A stretch of DNA of 64,000 nucleotides, taken from NCBI GenBank assembly GCA_017609645.1, contig JAFCDQ010000003.1, positions 221,571 through 285,570 on the forward strand, in the 5' to 3' direction. The stretch is from Candidatus Woesearchaeota archaeon. GTDB lineage: Archaea > Nanobdellota > Nanobdellia > Woesearchaeales > ARS49. The notes below the pieces were generated by a model, which saw only the letters and a list, made by a program, of their open reading frames with translations, had not been told where the DNA came from and ran no database searches. Positions 26,716 to 51,300 of the stretch are shown here, piece by piece. A program made the translations under genes and the position numbers. The stretch's first letter is position 1. Every line of letters begins with the position of its first letter.

Positions 26716-27141
26716 ATGTCTGAAGAATCCAAACCAGAAAAAGTTCCTTTTAATATCAAAGACCTTGAAGGTATGAAAGGCAAAGAATTATTATTGAGTT
26801 CATTCAATAAGCCAGATTTTCCAGTAACTGGGTGCATATCAGAAATAATTTCATTTCATCCTTATGGCGGAAAGTTTTATCAGTTAGGTTATCTAGATAA
26901 AATAACTTATGAAGATGGTTCTATTATTACTGCTAAAAAGCCAACGGAAAATTATTTATTTTTGTTTGAGGATTTAGAACTTCCAGAAAATCAACCACCT
27001 ATTCTTAAAGGCAAAGTTACAAAATCAGAAAAGAGTGAGCTGCCTGCAACGATTACACTTGATAAACAAGTAGTTCTTTATCTGTCTGAAACTCCAACAC
27101 AGAAAGAAAAAGTAGAGTTGACTTGCCTTTTTGAGAATTAA
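26716..27141 (+). CDS. Hypothetical protein
   Basis: 141-aa ORF with upstream TATA-like sequence; no recognised domain. Confidence 0.55.
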   Translation: MSEESKPEKVPFNIKDLEGMKGKELLLSSFNKPDFPVTGCISEIISFHPYGGKFYQLGYLDKITYEDGSIITAKKPTENYLFLFEDLELPENQPPILKGKVTKSEKSELPATITLDKQVVLYLSETPTQKEKVELTCLFEN

Positions 27142-27146
27142 AATCA

Positions 27147-27488
27147 TCACAAAAATCTCACAAACTTATTCTCCTTATCAACTAGAATATTCTTTGGTTT
27201 GATTGTTTTATCACTTAATTCAAAGCCCATGATGATTATTTCATCTCCTGGTTTGATTAAATGAGCTGCAGCGCCGTTCATGCAAATTGTTCCAGAACCT
27301 TTTTCTCCTGAAATTACATAAGTATCTAATCTTGCTCCATTTGTGTTGTCAACAACTAATACTTTTTCTCCAGGCCATAAGCCTGCTTTATCCATAAGTT
27401 CTTGATCAATTGTTATACTGCCTATATAATTTAGATTTGCATCTGTTACAGTTGCTTTGTGTATTTTAGATCTTAATACTAACCTCAT
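27147..27488 (-). CDS. panD: Aspartate 1-decarboxylase, pyruvoyl-dependent bacterial type
   Basis: [12 protein letters not shown]|SITID self-cleavage site, [16 protein letters not shown]. Confidence 0.95.
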
Positions 27489-27542
27489 TTTATATTATTA
27501 GAATTATTTTGCTATTTAAACATTATTGATTTAGAATCCAGA

Positions 27543-27556
27543 GAAACCTTTATAAA
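27543..27556 (+). promoter_or_regulatory. BRE/TATA promoter of the rpl7ae operon
   Basis: GAAACC-TTTATAAA about 100 nt upstream of ATG 27653. Confidence 0.7.
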
Positions 27557-27582
27557 TAAACCTTAAATTCTAAACATTATTA

Positions 27583-27647
27583 TCCTATGAGGTTTATGAG
27601 GCCAAATATGGCTGAAATTGAGGACTAATAATTCTAGTCCTGGAGGA
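27583..27647 (+). promoter_or_regulatory. Tandem double kink-turn in the rpl7ae 5' UTR with a competing hairpin next to the RBS
   Basis: UCC-UAU-GA-GG-UU-UAU-GA-GGCC-AAAUAU-GGCU-GA-AA-UU-GA-GGA (27583-27624); alternative stem AGGACUA/UAGUCCU (27621-27641) abuts GGAGG. Confidence 0.8.
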
Positions 27648-27652
27648 AGAAA

Positions 27653-28369
27653 ATGACTGAAAATAAAGAACTTGCTTTAGAAGCTATTGAAGTTGCTAAA
27701 AATACTGGTAAGATCAAAAAGGGCATTAATGAAGCTACTAAAACACTAGAAAGAGGCACTGCAAAACTAGTTGCTTATGCTAAAGATGTGCAGCCTGCGG
27801 AAGTAGTTATGCACCTACCTGTTCTTGCAAAAGAAAAAGGAATTATTTGTATTGAAGTTCCTTCTAAAGAAGAGTTAGGAACTGCTGCGGGAATTCCAGT
27901 TCCTACAAGTGCTGTTGCTATTATTGTTGAAGGTGAAGCTAAAAAAATTATTGCACAATTAAAAGCTTCTATGACAGTAGAGAAGCCTGCAGAAAAACCT
28001 AAAGAAGAACCTAAGAAAGAAGAAAAACCTGCAGAAAAGAAAGAAGAGAAGCCTGCAGAGAAAAAGGAAGCACCAAAAAAAGAAGCTCCTAAAGAAGAAA
28101 AGAAACAAGAAAAGCCAAAAGAAAAGAAAGAAGAGAAGCCTGCAGAAAAAAAGGAAGCACCAAAAAAAGAAGCTCCTAAAGAAGAAAAACCTGCAGAAAA
28201 AAAGCCAGAACCTAAAACAGAAGAAAAACCTGCAGAGAAAAAAACAGAAGTAAAGAAAGAAGCTCCTAAAGAAGAAAAGAAAGAAGAGCCAAAAACAGAA
28301 GAAAAGCCTAAAGAAGCTCCTAAAGAAGAAAAGAAAGAAGAGCCAAAGCCTGAAGAAAAGAAAGAGTAA
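27653..28369 (+). CDS. rpl7ae: Ribosomal protein L7Ae with about 130-aa K/E/P/A-rich C-terminal extension
   Basis: [12 protein letters not shown]...RG.AKLV..A.DV.P.EVV.HLP.L..EK.I....V.SK.ELG.AAG; tail of [18 protein letters not shown] repeats. Confidence 0.95.
28034..28188 (+). repeat. 68-bp in-frame duplication (period 87 bp) in the L7Ae tail
   Basis: 28034-28101 versus 28121-28188, one mismatch. Confidence 0.85.
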
Positions 28370-28371
28370 AA

Positions 28372-28647
28372 ATGGCAGAAAGAAAAGATAATAAAAAAGG
28401 AAAACCAGAAAAATCAGCTGGTGTTAGGTTTTCTCCTGCTGTTCCTGCTAAAGTTGAAGAAATAATTGGCAGAACAGGTACAAGAGGAGAAGCTATTCAA
28501 GTCAGATGCAGAATTCTTGACGGCAGGGATAAAGATAAAGTTATGAGAAGAAATGTTAAAGGACCTATTCAAAGAGAGGATATTATTATGCTTAGAGAAA
28601 CAGAGATTGAAGCCAGACCATTAAATAAGTCTGGCAGAGGTGGCTAA
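28372..28647 (+). CDS. rps28e: Ribosomal protein S28e
   Basis: [41 protein letters not shown]. Confidence 0.95.
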
Positions 28648-48300: not shown

Positions 48301-51300
48301 GAGAATTATGTTAATGAAGTCAAGCCATATAATGATCTGAAAGATACTTTGAACAGCTTTAAGGCAAAATCCGAACTTTCTGGGCAGTTTAATTATGATT
48401 CTTTTATGAAATTAAGTGAAATTAAAGAATTAACAAATGATTTGTATGATGAAGATTTGAATAATGATTTAGAAAAGTTAAATGATTTGATTTTTGCTAA
48501 CAAAGTTGATGATGCTAAAGGATCGTTGAAAAAGTTTGCTGAAAAGTATGAAGATGTTTTGTTAAATCATTACAGCAAAAAGATTGATAGTTCAATTGCT
48601 GACTTTAAAGATGCAGTTGCTTTTGCTGATTATGAACAGCTTATTTCAGCATCTAGTGCTATTAGTGATTTTGTTGATAAGAATCAAGGCAATAATAAGA
48701 TTGCTAGATTATTGCAGGGTATCGAAAGCGATATGTTGAACAAAAATGATATTAGCAATAAATTAGTTAGTTTAAGCGAGCTTATTTCTTCTGATGCTAC
48801 GGAGATTCCTGAACTTAATGACGGCTTGATGAGGTTAGGTGAAAAGCTAAATGATAATGATATTCAAGGCGTTCTTGATGAAGTTTCTGGAATGAAAAAG
48901 CAGGCCAAGAATTCTTGTTTTATTAGTGACGGCCAGCCAATTGTTTATGAGTATTTCACCCAGGATTTCGAGTTAGCAAATAAGCAGATTCAGGAAAAGA
49001 TGAAAAAAGCTAGTGAGACTGTTTCTGAGTTATATACAATTGTTGCCAAGCTAATGGGCCAGGTTGATGATGAAGATGAGGATTATGATTTATCAGATCT
49101 TAAGTTCGAGATGTATGACAAAATCAAAGAAAGCAGTTCATTCTTCTTTTTCAAGAATCAGTATTTTGAAGATTTGAAGTTATTGTTCAAGTTATCTCCT
49201 GTTTATTCTTATATGAAAGATTTGAGAACTGCTATTTTTTCAGTTTCTGAAGAACTTAATAGTTTAGATGTTGTTAAGCCAGAGCAGATTGATTATTATA
49301 ATGACCGGCTTGATAAGATCATGGCAGGCATTAATTCTTTGCGTGCTGTTTTGTTAAGCCAGTCTGGTAAAAATATTGATTTAGCTTTATCTCCTTATTT
49401 CACAGGAGCTATTGATGAAGGAACTCTTGATGTCAGAGTGTCTGACAGAGCTCATGCATTGACTGCTGAGATCATGGATAAAGTTGATAATGATGTTCCT
49501 GTTAGTGATGCAGCTCGTGCTGCAAATATTCTTGCTGAAACTTTTGAAAAAGAAATTCCTGAAGTTAAAGATTTAACAGAGCCTTCTTTTGAAAAGTATG
49601 AAGAAAAAGAGAAAATTGCTGAAGCTAAAGATTTGCTTGAGAAAGAGTTGAAACAAGATGAGTTTAGTAAAGAACAAGCAAAGATTGCTGATATTAAGAA
49701 AGAGATTTTTGCAAAGACAGAAGAGAGGAAGTTAGCTGATGAGTTAGCTGCTGTTTCTGATAAAATTACAGACGTTAGTGTTAAAGAAACGCTTGCTGAA
49801 GAAGTTGCTGAAGAAGAAAAGGCAGAGGAAGAAAAAGCTGAGCCAGAAGAAAAGAAGAAAAAGAAAGAAGAAGAGAAATTTAGTAAAGAAGAAAAGCTTG
49901 CTATGGAGAAATTCTATAACAAAGGTATGTATGCGTTTAAGAATGAAGATTATAAAGATGCGATTAAGAATTTTGGAGAGTATTTGCGGATTAATCCTTT
50001 GAATGCAGATGTGTTATGGCATACTGCTGATTCTTTGAAAAATGTTGAAGAGAATTATTTAAGCACAAAAACTGCTGAAGCTGTTGAGAAAGTTAAGGAT
50101 TGGAAAGAGTTTGTTCAAACTTTAGAAGAAATCGAAGGAACTCCTGAAGAAAAGGTTTCTAAGTTTGTTTCAGAAGTTCAGGAAAAGGTTGAAGCTCCTT
50201 CGTCTAGGTTTATTGAGCCTGCTGCTTATGTTTTGCTTGACATGACTGACTGCTTTACAGAACCTTTGCAGGAGTTTGTTGTTGAAGGTAAGATTTACAA
50301 TTTCTATGGTGTTAAAGAAGAAGTTGATGAACAAGGAGCAGTGAAATACTTTATTGAAGCTACTCCTAATGATAAAATTGAGACTGTTACATTCGAGATT
50401 CCTGAATTGATTAGTACTTTGAAAGAGCAGATTGGTTTTTGTAAAGTTGATGAAACAGAAGAAGAAAAGAAACCTCCTAAACCTACGCCGACAAATGATG
50501 ATTTTGCTCAGGCTTTGGCTAATGATCAAGCTAGGAAGTCTACTTCTCCAGATGGAGAAGAACAAGTTTGTATGGAAGTTGAATCTGATGTTTCTGCTTT
50601 GTCTAGTGTGATTGATGTTCAAAAAACTACAGCAGAAGTTTGCGCTCCTTATGATGATGTTGCTGCATTAAGTGACTTTAAAGAACCTGACAAAGAGATT
50701 AAACTATTTGAAGAGATGAAATTCCCAACTCTTGAGCCTGACTTTGAATTATTAAAACAAAGTAATGTTCGTGAGAATTTGTATGATATTTATAGAATAA
50801 CTCAGGTGCTAAATATTGTTGGTGATTATCAGCTTGATTCTGGCGAGAGTAAGTTGTTTGTTCTTGGTGATAATCTCTTTGAAACTGTGAAAGTTAGGAG
50901 AAAAGTTAGCAGAAAATTCCTTAATACCTTAGAAAAAATGGATTATACACCTCCTCCTAAATGTTCTTTCAAAGGAGGATCAGCAACTTGCACTCAATTT
51001 GATCAATGCGTTGTTATTAAAGGCAAATTAACTTGCTCTAAAAGTTTTTCAGAAAAAGATTGTACAGAAGTTGAAGGGAAATGGATTTGTGAAGGTTATA
51101 ATGAATGCAAAAAAGAAGGTGAAGAAATAATTTGTGAGCAAAGACTAAAAGAAGACTGCATTTTTGGCAGAGATGCGGAAGGTAATATTGTTGTCGAACA
51201 GTGCGAAGGTTTTGAAGAAGGTGAATGTAAGATTAATGATGAAAGTGAAATTGAATGTGAATCTTCAAGTGTAGAAATTCCTAGTGATTGTGAAAGAGTA

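What the first reader, a model, noticed from the sequence alone, without database searches (positions are those of the whole stretch)
27583..27655. Tandem double kink-turn in the rpl7ae leader, wired to a possible RBS switch
Seen: a UAUGAGG direct repeat gives two stacked kink-turns, each with a UAU bulge and tandem G.A/A.G pairs, closed by UCC/GGA and capped by CC-AAAUAU-GG. The 3' strand of the outer kink (GAGGA) is also the 5' arm of a 7-bp hairpin AGGACUA/UAGUCCU ending at the GGAGG RBS. If the kink forms, the freed UCC (27638-27640) can pair with GGA (27645-27647). The TATA position puts the transcript start just before the element. Known: L7Ae binds kink-turns and represses its own mRNA through a 5' UTR kink-turn in Sulfolobus. 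Inference: a two-site, possibly cooperative autoregulatory switch for this operon.
Basis: partly seen in the sequence, partly recalled or inferred. Interest (0 to 1): 0.68.

Follow-up and report, generated by a model that had tools for sequence, protein, structure and literature searches.

The report
Double kink-turn leader of L7Ae gene
The messenger RNA for ribosomal protein L7Ae in this tiny Woesearchaeota archaeon starts with two linked copies of the RNA kink that L7Ae binds, plus a competing hairpin. This is a conserved, two-site version of a known self-regulation device; binding and regulation have not been tested.

Summary
Window 27583-27624 reads UCC-UAU-GA-GGUU-UAU-GA-[GGCC AAAUAU GGCU]-GA-AAUU-GA-GGA. 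That is two same-sense kink-turns in which the non-canonical helix of the outer one is the canonical helix of the inner one.

- **Conservation.** A covariance model built only from other genera finds this site as the sole significant hit in the 1.1-Mb genome. It finds one hit per genome in 109 of 301 sampled genomes of the phylum, all in the same order (Woesearchaeales by record titles).
- **K-turn signature.** In 84 leaders all four GA dinucleotides and both bulge-final U are invariant, and the helices covary.
- **Position.** A TATA box ends 22-24 nt upstream in most relatives (26 nt here), so the module sits at the mRNA 5' end.
- **Competing hairpin.** A downstream hairpin that uses the outer 3' strand (GAGG) is present in nearly all parsed leaders. 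A UUCU motif follows in 71 of 76.

The best reading is L7Ae autoregulation through a double kink-turn whose formation melts the hairpin. Predicted Shine-Dalgarno masking is modest, and in this window it comes from coding-sequence pairing.

Published euryarchaeal l7ae leaders carry the same double 5' strand but are described as single k-turns. I rate this a new variant of a known kind.

The parts
27549..27556 (+). TATA box TTTATAAA of the rpl7ae operon promoter; the inferred transcript start is about 27579-27582
   Evidence: Sequence. The same YTTATAWA box ends 22-24 nt before the first C-helix nucleotide in 59 of 69 relatives and 20-26 nt in 67 of 69; here it is 26 nt. The start site is inferred from the usual archaeal TATA-to-start spacing and was not mapped.
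27583..27585 (+). Outer kink-turn, C helix 5' strand (UCC)
   Evidence: Pairs with GGA 27622-24. The family consensus is ACC/GGN. Pair counts in 82 distinct leaders: pair 2 C:G 75, U:G 3, U:A 2; pair 3 C:G 75, U:G 4; pair 1 A:U 30, U:A 13.
27586..27588 (+). Outer 3-nt bulge UAU
   Evidence: L3 is U in 78 of 78 aligned leaders and L2 is A in 63 of 80.
27589..27590 (+). Outer GA (1b, 2b), sheared partners of G27620 and A27621
   Evidence: G in 78 of 78 and A in 79 of 79 aligned leaders.
27591..27594 (+). Shared helix 5' strand GGUU: the NC helix of the outer turn and the C helix of the inner turn
   Evidence: Pairs with AAUU 27616-19. Relatives mostly have 2 nt here: 61 have 2+2 and 10 have 3+2. 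Only this genus has 4+4. The model aligns the extra bases as a symmetric 2-nt insertion on each strand.
27595..27597 (+). Inner 3-nt bulge UAU
   Evidence: L3 is U in 82 of 83 aligned leaders and L2 is A in 76 of 83.
27598..27599 (+). Inner GA (1b, 2b)
   Evidence: Invariant in 82 of 82 aligned leaders.
27600..27613 (+). Inner NC stem-loop GGCC-AAAUAU-GGCU
   Evidence: The stem pairs covary strongly. For example, one pair shows C:G 43, G:C 25, A:U 5 and U:A 5. The helix is 90% paired overall.
27614..27615 (+). Inner GA (2n, 1n), part of a box-D-like CUGA
   Evidence: Invariant in 83 of 83 aligned leaders.
27616..27619 (+). Shared helix 3' strand AAUU
   Evidence: The pair next to the inner bulge covaries: U:A 50, U:G 18, C:G 10.
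27620..27621 (+). Outer GA (2n, 1n)
   Evidence: G in 83 of 84 and A in 82 of 82 aligned leaders.
27622..27624 (+). Outer C helix 3' strand GGA. Together with the preceding GA it forms the SD-like word GAGG.
   Evidence: GG in 82 of 82 and 81 of 83 aligned leaders. In the published Methanomicrobiales leaders read here, the homologous GA-GGU lies just before the AUG; that it is their SD is my reading.
27621..27641 (+). Competing hairpin AGGACUA-AUAAUUC-UAGUCCU, mutually exclusive with the outer kink-turn
   Evidence: It forms in the MFE of the leader and folds alone at -8.6 kcal/mol. An equivalent hairpin whose 5' arm contains GAGG is predicted in nearly all of the 76 parsed relatives, with very different arm sequences.
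27632..27635 (+). Conserved UUCU motif; role unexplained
   Evidence: Present within 30 nt after the module in 71 of 76 leaders (shuffles: mean 13, maximum 22). It lies 5-8 nt after GGN in 54 of them. Depending on the leader it sits in the loop or in the 3' arm.
27642..27646 (+). Shine-Dalgarno GGAGG of rpl7ae
   Evidence: Sequence; it lies 6 nt before the AUG. A GGAGG-like word sits before the start codon in most relatives.
27653..28369 (+). rpl7ae coding sequence (238 aa). It has an L7Ae domain at residues 10-99 and a long Lys/Glu/Pro-rich repeat tail. rps28e, rpl24e, ndk and an ORF that looks like aEF-2 (not searched) follow.
   Evidence: Pfam PF01248, E 1e-25; the downstream genes match PF01200, PF01246 and PF00334.

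Best explanation
Window 27583-27624 is a double kink-turn at the very 5' end of the rpl7ae-rps28e-rpl24e-ndk mRNA. I read it as the autoregulatory binding site for L7Ae.

**Shown here**
- Two standard k-turn signatures (3-nt bulge ending in U, then tandem G.A/A.G) lie in the same sense.
- They are joined so that the NC helix of the outer turn is the C helix of the inner turn.
- This architecture is conserved with covariation in an order of DPANN archaea (Woesearchaeales by record titles), once per genome and always in front of l7ae in the loci checked.
- The 3' strand of the outer turn (GAGG) is also the 5' arm of a conserved downstream hairpin, so the two folds exclude each other.

**Inferred**
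- When L7Ae is scarce, the hairpin forms, the outer turn is open and the SD next to the hairpin is free, so the operon is translated.
- When free L7Ae rises, one copy binds the inner turn. In this genus its C helix (GGUU/AAUU) does not overlap the hairpin.
- A second copy then captures GAGG into the outer turn and melts the hairpin.
- The released pyrimidine-rich arm and the SD refold, with each other in most relatives and with the early coding region in this window, and initiation falls.

**My odds**
- L7Ae binds here and feeds back negatively: about 0.7.
- Two copies bind: about 0.55.
- The output is SD masking through the freed arm: about 0.35.
For: - **Uniqueness.** Model R1 was built from other genera. 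It finds only this site in the own genome (29.2 bits) and in the window with filters off.
- **Distribution.** R1 finds 84 hits in 100 l7ae loci, one per locus and upstream of the gene. It also finds hits in 109 of 301 sampled genomes of the phylum, all in the same order, with a single hit in 107 of them.
- **Covariation.** 84.7% of cells are paired against 65.9% in shuffles. There are 150 double-change cells against 47, and 0 of 500 shuffles reach the observed values. Slid controls give 27-58% paired.
- **K-turn signature.** All four GA dinucleotides and both L3 = U are invariant.
- **Promoter spacing.** TATA spacing is 22-24 nt in 59 of 69 leaders.
- **Competing hairpin.** It is predicted in nearly all of the 76 parsed relatives.
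- **Energetics.** The nearest-neighbour cost of switching in this window is +7.1 kcal/mol. From my own knowledge, L7Ae binds k-turns at picomolar to nanomolar affinity, which would cover this cost.
- **SD accessibility.** With GAGG sequestered, predicted SD accessibility falls in 59 of 76 leaders. It is 0.40 against 0.59 for a control that keeps GAGG. The SD's predicted partner is the freed leader arm in 52 of 76.
- **Precedents.** L7Ae binds and represses through a k-turn in its own 5' UTR (PMC5539422; PMC6298567). Two L7Ae copies bind an overlapping double K-turn in RNase P RNA (PMC5499556). Two tandem K-loops gave 9-fold stronger repression than one in engineered mRNAs (PMC3711428).
Against: - The transcript start and any regulation are therefore inferred.
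- The SD is 18 nt downstream of the module and is not part of it, unlike the published cases.
- In this window the freed arm abuts the SD and cannot pair with it well (probability 0.03). The predicted masking relies on a weak helix with G.U pairs to the coding region.
- The accessibility shift across the family is modest (about 0.2), the leaders are phylogenetically related, and the p-values therefore overstate support.
- In some relatives the SD lies 40-120 nt from the module.
- The shared helix has 6 pairs here, 4 in most relatives and 3 in RNase P, so a fixed fold-back geometry is not conserved.
- The outer C helix is only 3 bp.
Confidence: 0.65

Rival explanations
1. Only one of the two kink-turns is a functional L7Ae site. 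The second pair of GA dinucleotides merely extends or tunes the helix, so the element is the ordinary single-k-turn autoregulator.
For: Some relatives have lost a clean outer turn but keep the inner box-C/D-like turn and the hairpin. Examples are L011, L017 and L041, where the model matches weakly or only over positions 9-35. L015 has a single turn. The published work reads the homologous euryarchaeal leaders as single k-turns and solved a 1:1 k-turn complex (PMC6298567).
Against: Both turns keep the full signature in about 80 leaders: a 3-nt bulge, L3 = U invariant, and GA invariant on both strands. The symmetric 2+2 insertion in this genus preserves both turns. Two L7Ae copies do occupy the analogous overlapping module in RNase P RNA (PMC5499556).
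Confidence: 0.15
2. L7Ae binds the module, but the output is not SD masking. Possible outputs are protection or exposure of the mRNA 5' end to decay, co-transcriptional effects, or a loading platform for L7Ae.
For: The module sits within a few nucleotides of the inferred 5' end. The SD lies at variable and sometimes long distance, 11-106 nt. The UUCU motif keeps a fixed distance from the module rather than from the SD. The predicted accessibility change is modest.
Against: All characterised L7Ae and L30e feedback loops act on translation or splicing through occlusion (PMC5539422, PMC6298567). A hairpin arm complementary to both GAGG and the SD is what a translational relay needs. 5'-end protection would give positive rather than negative feedback.
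Confidence: 0.15
3. The element is a separate small RNA gene (box C/D-like or another k-turn RNA) that happens to lie upstream of rpl7ae, and is not an mRNA leader.
For: The inner turn reads like box C (UGAUGA in most relatives) plus box D (CUGA). It has its own strong TATA box. A few relatives have AT-rich stretches between the module and the gene that could be second promoters.
Against: In this window only 28 nt separate the module from the AUG, and there is no second promoter or terminator. There are no guide regions and no C'/D' boxes. No Rfam family matches. The element is strictly linked to l7ae in every genome checked, once per genome.
Confidence: 0.03

Closest known systems
L7Ae translational autoregulation through a k-turn in the l7ae 5' UTR (Sulfolobus acidocaldarius, Daume et al. 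2017, PMC5539422; Archaeoglobus fulgidus structure and probing, Huang, Ashraf & Lilley 2019, PMC6298567)
   Same: It precedes the same gene, lies in the 5' leader directly after a TATA box, and carries a k-turn signature (3-nt bulge plus tandem G.A). The C helix is short, so the fold should need the protein. The 3' strand GA-GG is SD-like. The published alignment itself contains the same double 5' strand (NAU-GA-NN-GAU-GA) in at least 24 of 121 leaders. In the Methanomicrobiales, Methanocella and Archaeoglobales leaders I read, it contains the full double module.
   Different: The published model is one k-turn with the SD built into its helix. Here there are two linked turns with a well-formed covarying inner stem-loop. 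The GAGG strand is not the SD, which lies 18 nt further on. A conserved competing hairpin and a UUCU motif are interposed. The outer -1b:-1n pair is C:G, whereas none of the six published leaders has C:G there.
Double K-turn module of euryarchaeal RNase P RNA helix P12 (Lai et al. 2017, PMC5499556)
   Same: Both have two same-sense k-turns in which the NC helix of the first is the C helix of the second. In RNase P RNA the module binds two L7Ae copies without steric clash. That paper explicitly called for a search for other RNAs with this module.
   Different: The context is an mRNA leader rather than a catalytic RNA. The shared helix has 6 pairs here and 4 in most relatives, against 3 in P12. 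The model built from the leaders does not hit this genome's own RNase P RNA. The presumed role is regulatory rather than architectural.
Engineered mRNA OFF switches with tandem K-turn or K-loop motifs in the 5' UTR (Endo et al. 2013, PMC3711428)
   Same: Both use more than one L7Ae site close to the mRNA 5' end. In the engineered system, two K-loops gave 9-fold stronger repression than one.
   Different: Those motifs are separate hairpins in series in eukaryotic, cap-dependent mRNAs. Here the two turns share a helix and are coupled to a competing hairpin in an SD-led archaeal mRNA.

Membership tests
L7Ae autoregulatory 5'-UTR k-turn (Daume 2017; Huang 2019) | Lies in the 5' untranslated leader of the l7ae mRNA | tested here: met
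   The module ends 28 nt before the AUG of an ORF with a Pfam L7Ae domain. A conserved TATA box lies 20-26 nt upstream in 67 of 69 relatives.
L7Ae autoregulatory 5'-UTR k-turn (Daume 2017; Huang 2019) | Standard k-turn signature: C helix, 3-nt bulge, tandem sheared G.A/A.G, NC helix | tested here: met
   Present twice. GA and L3 = U are invariant in 84 leaders and the helices covary.
L7Ae autoregulatory 5'-UTR k-turn (Daume 2017; Huang 2019) | The SD is incorporated in, or immediately adjoins, the k-turn helices, so that binding occludes it | tested here: not met
   GGAGG 27642-46 lies 18 nt past the module, and in relatives 11-106 nt. Only an indirect relay through the hairpin arm is possible, and the predicted effect is modest.
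L7Ae autoregulatory 5'-UTR k-turn (Daume 2017; Huang 2019) | L7Ae binds the leader and lowers translation | not testable with these tools
   This needs a gel shift, probing or a reporter assay.
Double K-turn module (Lai et al. 2017) | [quoted passage not shown] | tested here: met
   Helix 27591-94/27616-19, together with the outer G.A pairs, is flanked by the outer GA pairs on one side and the inner bulge on the other. The same layout occurs in 76-84 relatives.
Double K-turn module (Lai et al. 2017) | Very short shared helix (three pairs in RNase P RNA) | tested here: not met
   There are six pairs here (2 G.A plus 4) and four in 61 relatives.
Double K-turn module (Lai et al. 2017) | Occupied by two L7Ae copies | not testable with these tools
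   This needs native mass spectrometry or a gel shift with single-turn mutants.
Archaeal box C/D sRNA | Boxes C and D plus C' and D', with 10-12-nt guide regions between them | tested here: not met
   The motifs are nested (b-strand, b-strand, hairpin, n-strand, n-strand) and there are no guide spacers. No Rfam C/D family comes near its threshold.

The most novel reading that the evidence does not exclude
The double kink-turn, not the single k-turn in the literature, may be the ancestral and general form of the l7ae autoregulatory leader across Archaea, from Methanomicrobiales, Methanocellales, Archaeoglobales and Thermococcales to DPANN. In most lineages its 3' strand GA-NN-GA-GG is itself the Shine-Dalgarno sequence. 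In Woesearchaeales that strand would have become a decoy SD: L7Ae capture of the decoy frees an anti-SD arm (and the UUCU motif) that then silences the real SD downstream. This would be a protein-driven three-part relay with two-site, threshold-like dose sensing.
Probability: 0.35. Interest if true: 0.72.

Novelty: new variant of a known kind. Interest (0 to 1): 0.56.

Why it matters
L7Ae is shared by the ribosome, box C/D and H/ACA particles and RNase P, so its free level must be controlled. The known control device is described as one k-turn that hides the ribosome binding site.

This finding shows a two-site, helix-sharing version that is conserved with covariation in an order of DPANN archaea. 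It is coupled to a mutually exclusive hairpin, which makes it a protein-operated two-state RNA.

It also gives a second natural context for the double K-turn module, so far reported only in RNase P RNA, whose discoverers asked for further examples. The published euryarchaeal leaders may also deserve re-reading as double sites.

In practice, the element offers compact natural parts of about 42 nt for steeper L7Ae-based synthetic switches. It also provides a clean test system for cooperativity between adjacent k-turns.

Tried and rejected
- **Rfam.** A search of 27000-28500 at E up to 10 found only chance-level hits and no family for this leader.
- **Plain MFE folding.** The z-score is -1.2, which is uninformative for G.A motifs.
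- **First TATA regular expression.** It was wrong and was corrected.
- **Mimicry of RNase P RNA.** I asked whether the leader mimics this genome's own RNase P P12. The RNase P RNA was found and P12 has a GAUGA...AGA k-turn region. However, the leader model does not hit it, so there is no close sequence mimicry.
- **Other genome hits.** None is significant. The best in the genome is E 1.35. The best other hit in the window, 49138-49165, is antisense inside a 2257-aa ORF and is taken as chance.
- **UUCU pairing.** I tested UUCU as a partner of the 3' spacer (GAAU/AUUC). There is no consistent covariation when the spacer changes (inspection). An H-type pseudoknot is sterically implausible with zero-length loops.
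- **Extension of the outer C helix.** Pairing of the mRNA 5' end with bases after GGN is not consistent across leaders.
- **Protein tail versus spacer length.** There is no consistent link between the long L7Ae tail and spacer length beyond this genus.
- **Intrinsic terminator.** This reading of the hairpin is rejected because no U-tract follows it.

Full report
**1. What is in the sequence**

The ORF at 27653-28369 (+) encodes a 238-aa protein with a Pfam L7Ae domain (PF01248, E 1e-25). It is followed by rps28e, rpl24e, ndk and a 729-aa ORF that looks like aEF-2 (not searched). A divergent panD lies upstream.

- UCC(27583-85)-UAU-GA-GGUU-UAU-GA-GGCC-AAAUAU-GGCU-GA-AAUU-GA-GGA(27622-24)
- then the hairpin AGGACUA/UAGUCCU (27621-27/27635-41)
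- then GGAGG (27642-46) and AUG (27653).

Each UAU bulge is followed by GA facing a GA on the other strand. The four pairs GGUU/AAUU, together with the outer G.A pairs, are at once the non-canonical helix of the outer turn and the canonical helix of the inner turn.

Ordinary free-energy folding does not flag the region (z -1.2). It predicts the inner stem and the downstream hairpin. This is expected, because nearest-neighbour models do not credit sheared G.A pairs.

**2. Is it more than chance?**

I collected l7ae loci from 60 relatives in the same order (extended) and 80 named genome records. The record titles that carry a DPANN name identify the group as Woesearchaeota/Nanoarchaeota.

Almost every leader shows the same plan: TTTATAAA, then about 23 nt, then ACC-NAU-GA-NN-NAU-GA-[stem-loop]-(C)UGA-NN-GA-GGN.

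- A rule-based parse found the double module in 79 of 116 non-redundant leaders, 76 after removing doubtful parses. The spacers are 2+2 nt in 61 leaders, 3+2 in 10, and 4+4 only in the window's own genus.
- A covariance model (R1) built from 17 leaders, none from this genus, returns 27583-27624 as the only significant hit in the whole 1.1-Mb genome (29.2 bits, E 0.0016; the next hit is E 1.35). In the window with filters off it gives E 9e-5.
- The model aligns the window's element end to end. The extra bases appear as a symmetric 2-nt insertion on each strand of the shared helix.
- R1 hits 84 of 100 l7ae loci, once each and always just upstream of the gene.
- It hits 109 of 301 sampled genomes of the phylum, all in the same family or order, with a single hit in 107 of them.

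On the 84-sequence alignment:
- 84.7% of cells are standard pairs, against 65.9% after shuffling.
- 150 cells carry changes on both sides, against 47.
- The covariation score is 0.50 against 0.19, and 0 of 500 shuffles reach the observed values.
- Sliding the partners by 1-3 columns drops pairing to 27-58%.
- The 3b.3n positions are often non-Watson-Crick, as is usual in k-turns.
- All four GA dinucleotides and the last bulge base (U) of both turns are invariant among aligned leaders. The outer -1b:-1n pair is C:G in 75 of 79 aligned distinct leaders.

Model hits are selected for these features, so the real test is the fraction of independent loci that have them and the uniqueness of the hit per genome.

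**3. Position on the transcript**

The promoter box ends 22-24 nt before the first C-helix base in 59 of 69 leaders and 20-26 nt in 67 of 69; in the window it is 26 nt. With the usual archaeal TATA-to-start spacing (general knowledge), transcription starts within a few nucleotides of the module, at about 27579-27582 here.

This is an inference.

**4. The competing hairpin and UUCU**

In nearly all of the 76 parsed leaders, the segment beginning at the outer n-strand folds into a hairpin whose 5' arm contains GAGG. The arm often also includes the spacer and the base after it. The rest of both arms differs widely between genera. The outer k-turn and this hairpin therefore exclude each other, and that exclusivity is conserved.

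In the window the nearest-neighbour cost of imposing the k-turn helices is +7.1 kcal/mol (-21.1 to -14.0). This figure does not count the G.A pairs or the protein. From my own knowledge, L7Ae binds k-turns at picomolar to nanomolar affinity, which would cover it.

In this genus the inner turn's C helix (27591-94/27616-19) does not overlap the hairpin. One L7Ae could therefore bind first, and a second could then trigger the switch. This ordering is inference.

It follows the module in 71 of 76 leaders, against a mean of 13 and a maximum of 22 in 500 shuffles. It lies 5-8 nt after GGN in 54 of them. It falls in the hairpin loop in some leaders and in the 3' arm in others, so its conservation is not explained by the hairpin alone. 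I could not find a covarying partner. It can pair with GAGGR or with the SD, so it may be a second anti-SD. That remains open.

**5. Does the switch reach the ribosome binding site?**

I compared the predicted unpaired probability of the SD in three states:
- the full leader,
- the leader with the module made unavailable,
- a control lacking the 5' part but keeping GAGG.

Accessibility is lower in the 'bound' state in 59 of 76 leaders. The means are 0.53 for the full leader, 0.59 for the control and 0.40 for the bound state. In the bound state the SD's partner is the freed leader arm in 52 of 76 leaders.

This direction fits a relay: GAGG is an SD look-alike, the arm is complementary to both, and L7Ae decides which one it pairs with. 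However, the effect is modest, the sequences are related, and the method cannot model the protein.

In the window itself the arm abuts the SD. The predicted drop (0.50 to 0.30) comes from a weak helix between 27635-27649 and early codons of the coding sequence. I therefore rate the output step as the weakest part of the model.

**6. Comparison with what is known**

Daume et al. 2017 showed that L7Ae binds its own 5' UTR and represses translation. They also proposed k-turn strands in many archaeal leaders by manual inspection (PMC5539422). Huang, Ashraf and Lilley 2019 solved the A. fulgidus complex. They showed that the leader is unstructured without protein and that the SD becomes part of the C helix (PMC6298567). 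Both papers describe a single k-turn.

Lai et al. 2017 described an overlapping 'double K-turn' in RNase P RNA P12. In it, the NC helix of KT2 is the C helix of KT3, the shared helix has three pairs, and two L7Ae copies bind. They asked for other examples (PMC5499556).

I found no paper describing a double k-turn in an l7ae leader.

Reading Daume's own supplementary alignment and primer list shows the same double 5' strand, as an exact ungapped string, in at least 24 of 121 published leaders. Examples:
- Archaeoglobus fulgidus: CCGAUGAAUGAUGA
- Thermococcales: CAGAUGAACGAUGA
- Methanosarcina: ACCUAUGAUUGAUGA

Methanomicrobiales carry the full module. Mhun_1601 reads CU-GAU-GA-GU-GAU-GA-[stem-loop]-U-GA-AU-GA-GGU followed directly by the AUG. 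Memar_0721, Mpet_2104 and Methanocella LRC145 are similar. I read their 3' strand GA-NN-GA-GG(U) as the SD itself.

So the double layout is probably old and widespread, and the Woesearchaeal form is a derived variant. It has a well-developed inner stem-loop, its SD-like strand is demoted to a decoy, and it has gained a hairpin, a UUCU motif and a new SD. Other Nanoarchaeota leaders in my sample have a short K-loop, AAACC-AAU-GA-UAG-GA-GGUUU, with the SD in the 3' strand right before the AUG. That is the direct-occlusion form.

Earlier notes of this scan reached similar readings in other genomes. I treated them as leads and checked the euryarchaeal claim only against the published alignment.

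**7. Verdict**

- The interpretation as a two-site L7Ae feedback element with a competing hairpin is well motivated but biochemically untested.
- It is a new variant of a known kind, of moderate to good interest.

Noticed in passing
window 27632-27635; relatives L002-L130: A UUCU word lies at a near-fixed distance (5-8 nt) after the module in 71 of 76 leaders (shuffle mean 13). It sits in the loop of the competing hairpin in some leaders and in its 3' arm in others. No covarying partner was found.
   Followed up: partly
window 27975-28369: In this genus L7Ae carries a C-terminal tail of about 130 aa made of Lys/Glu/Pro/Ala repeats (PAEKK-like; 87-nt period, 3.3 copies). Proteins are 207-238 aa in the genus against about 105-130 aa in most relatives. 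The same genus alone has the longer 4+4 shared helix.
   Followed up: partly
L100, L105, L109, L114, L117, L121, L123, L127, L128 (leaders just before the AUG): Other Nanoarchaeota have a much shorter l7ae leader, AAACC-AAU-GA-UAG-GA-GGUUU. It is a single K-loop whose 3' strand is the GGAGG ribosome binding site.
   Followed up: partly
Published alignment, Daume et al. 2017 Text S1 (PMC5539422): At least 24 of 121 published l7ae leaders hold the double 5' strand NAU-GA-NN-GAU-GA. Methanomicrobiales, Methanocella and Archaeoglobales show the full double module with the SD as its 3' strand. The papers describe a single k-turn.
   Followed up: partly
L060 (about 50-nt insert in the competing hairpin); L010, L013, L076 (inserts of 20-60 nt in the inner stem-loop): Several relatives carry structured, partly palindromic insertions inside loops of the leader while keeping all k-turn signature bases.
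   Followed up: no
window 27147-27488 (-): An aspartate 1-decarboxylase (panD, Pfam E 3e-44) is divergently transcribed from rpl7ae. This is a biosynthetic gene in a small (1.1 Mb) DPANN genome.
   Followed up: no
G000:C1:242602-242927 (L131 1501-1826): The genome's RNase P RNA scores 135 bits. Its P12 region has a GAUGA...AGA k-turn-like stretch and a large insertion, and it is not matched by the leader model.
   Followed up: partly
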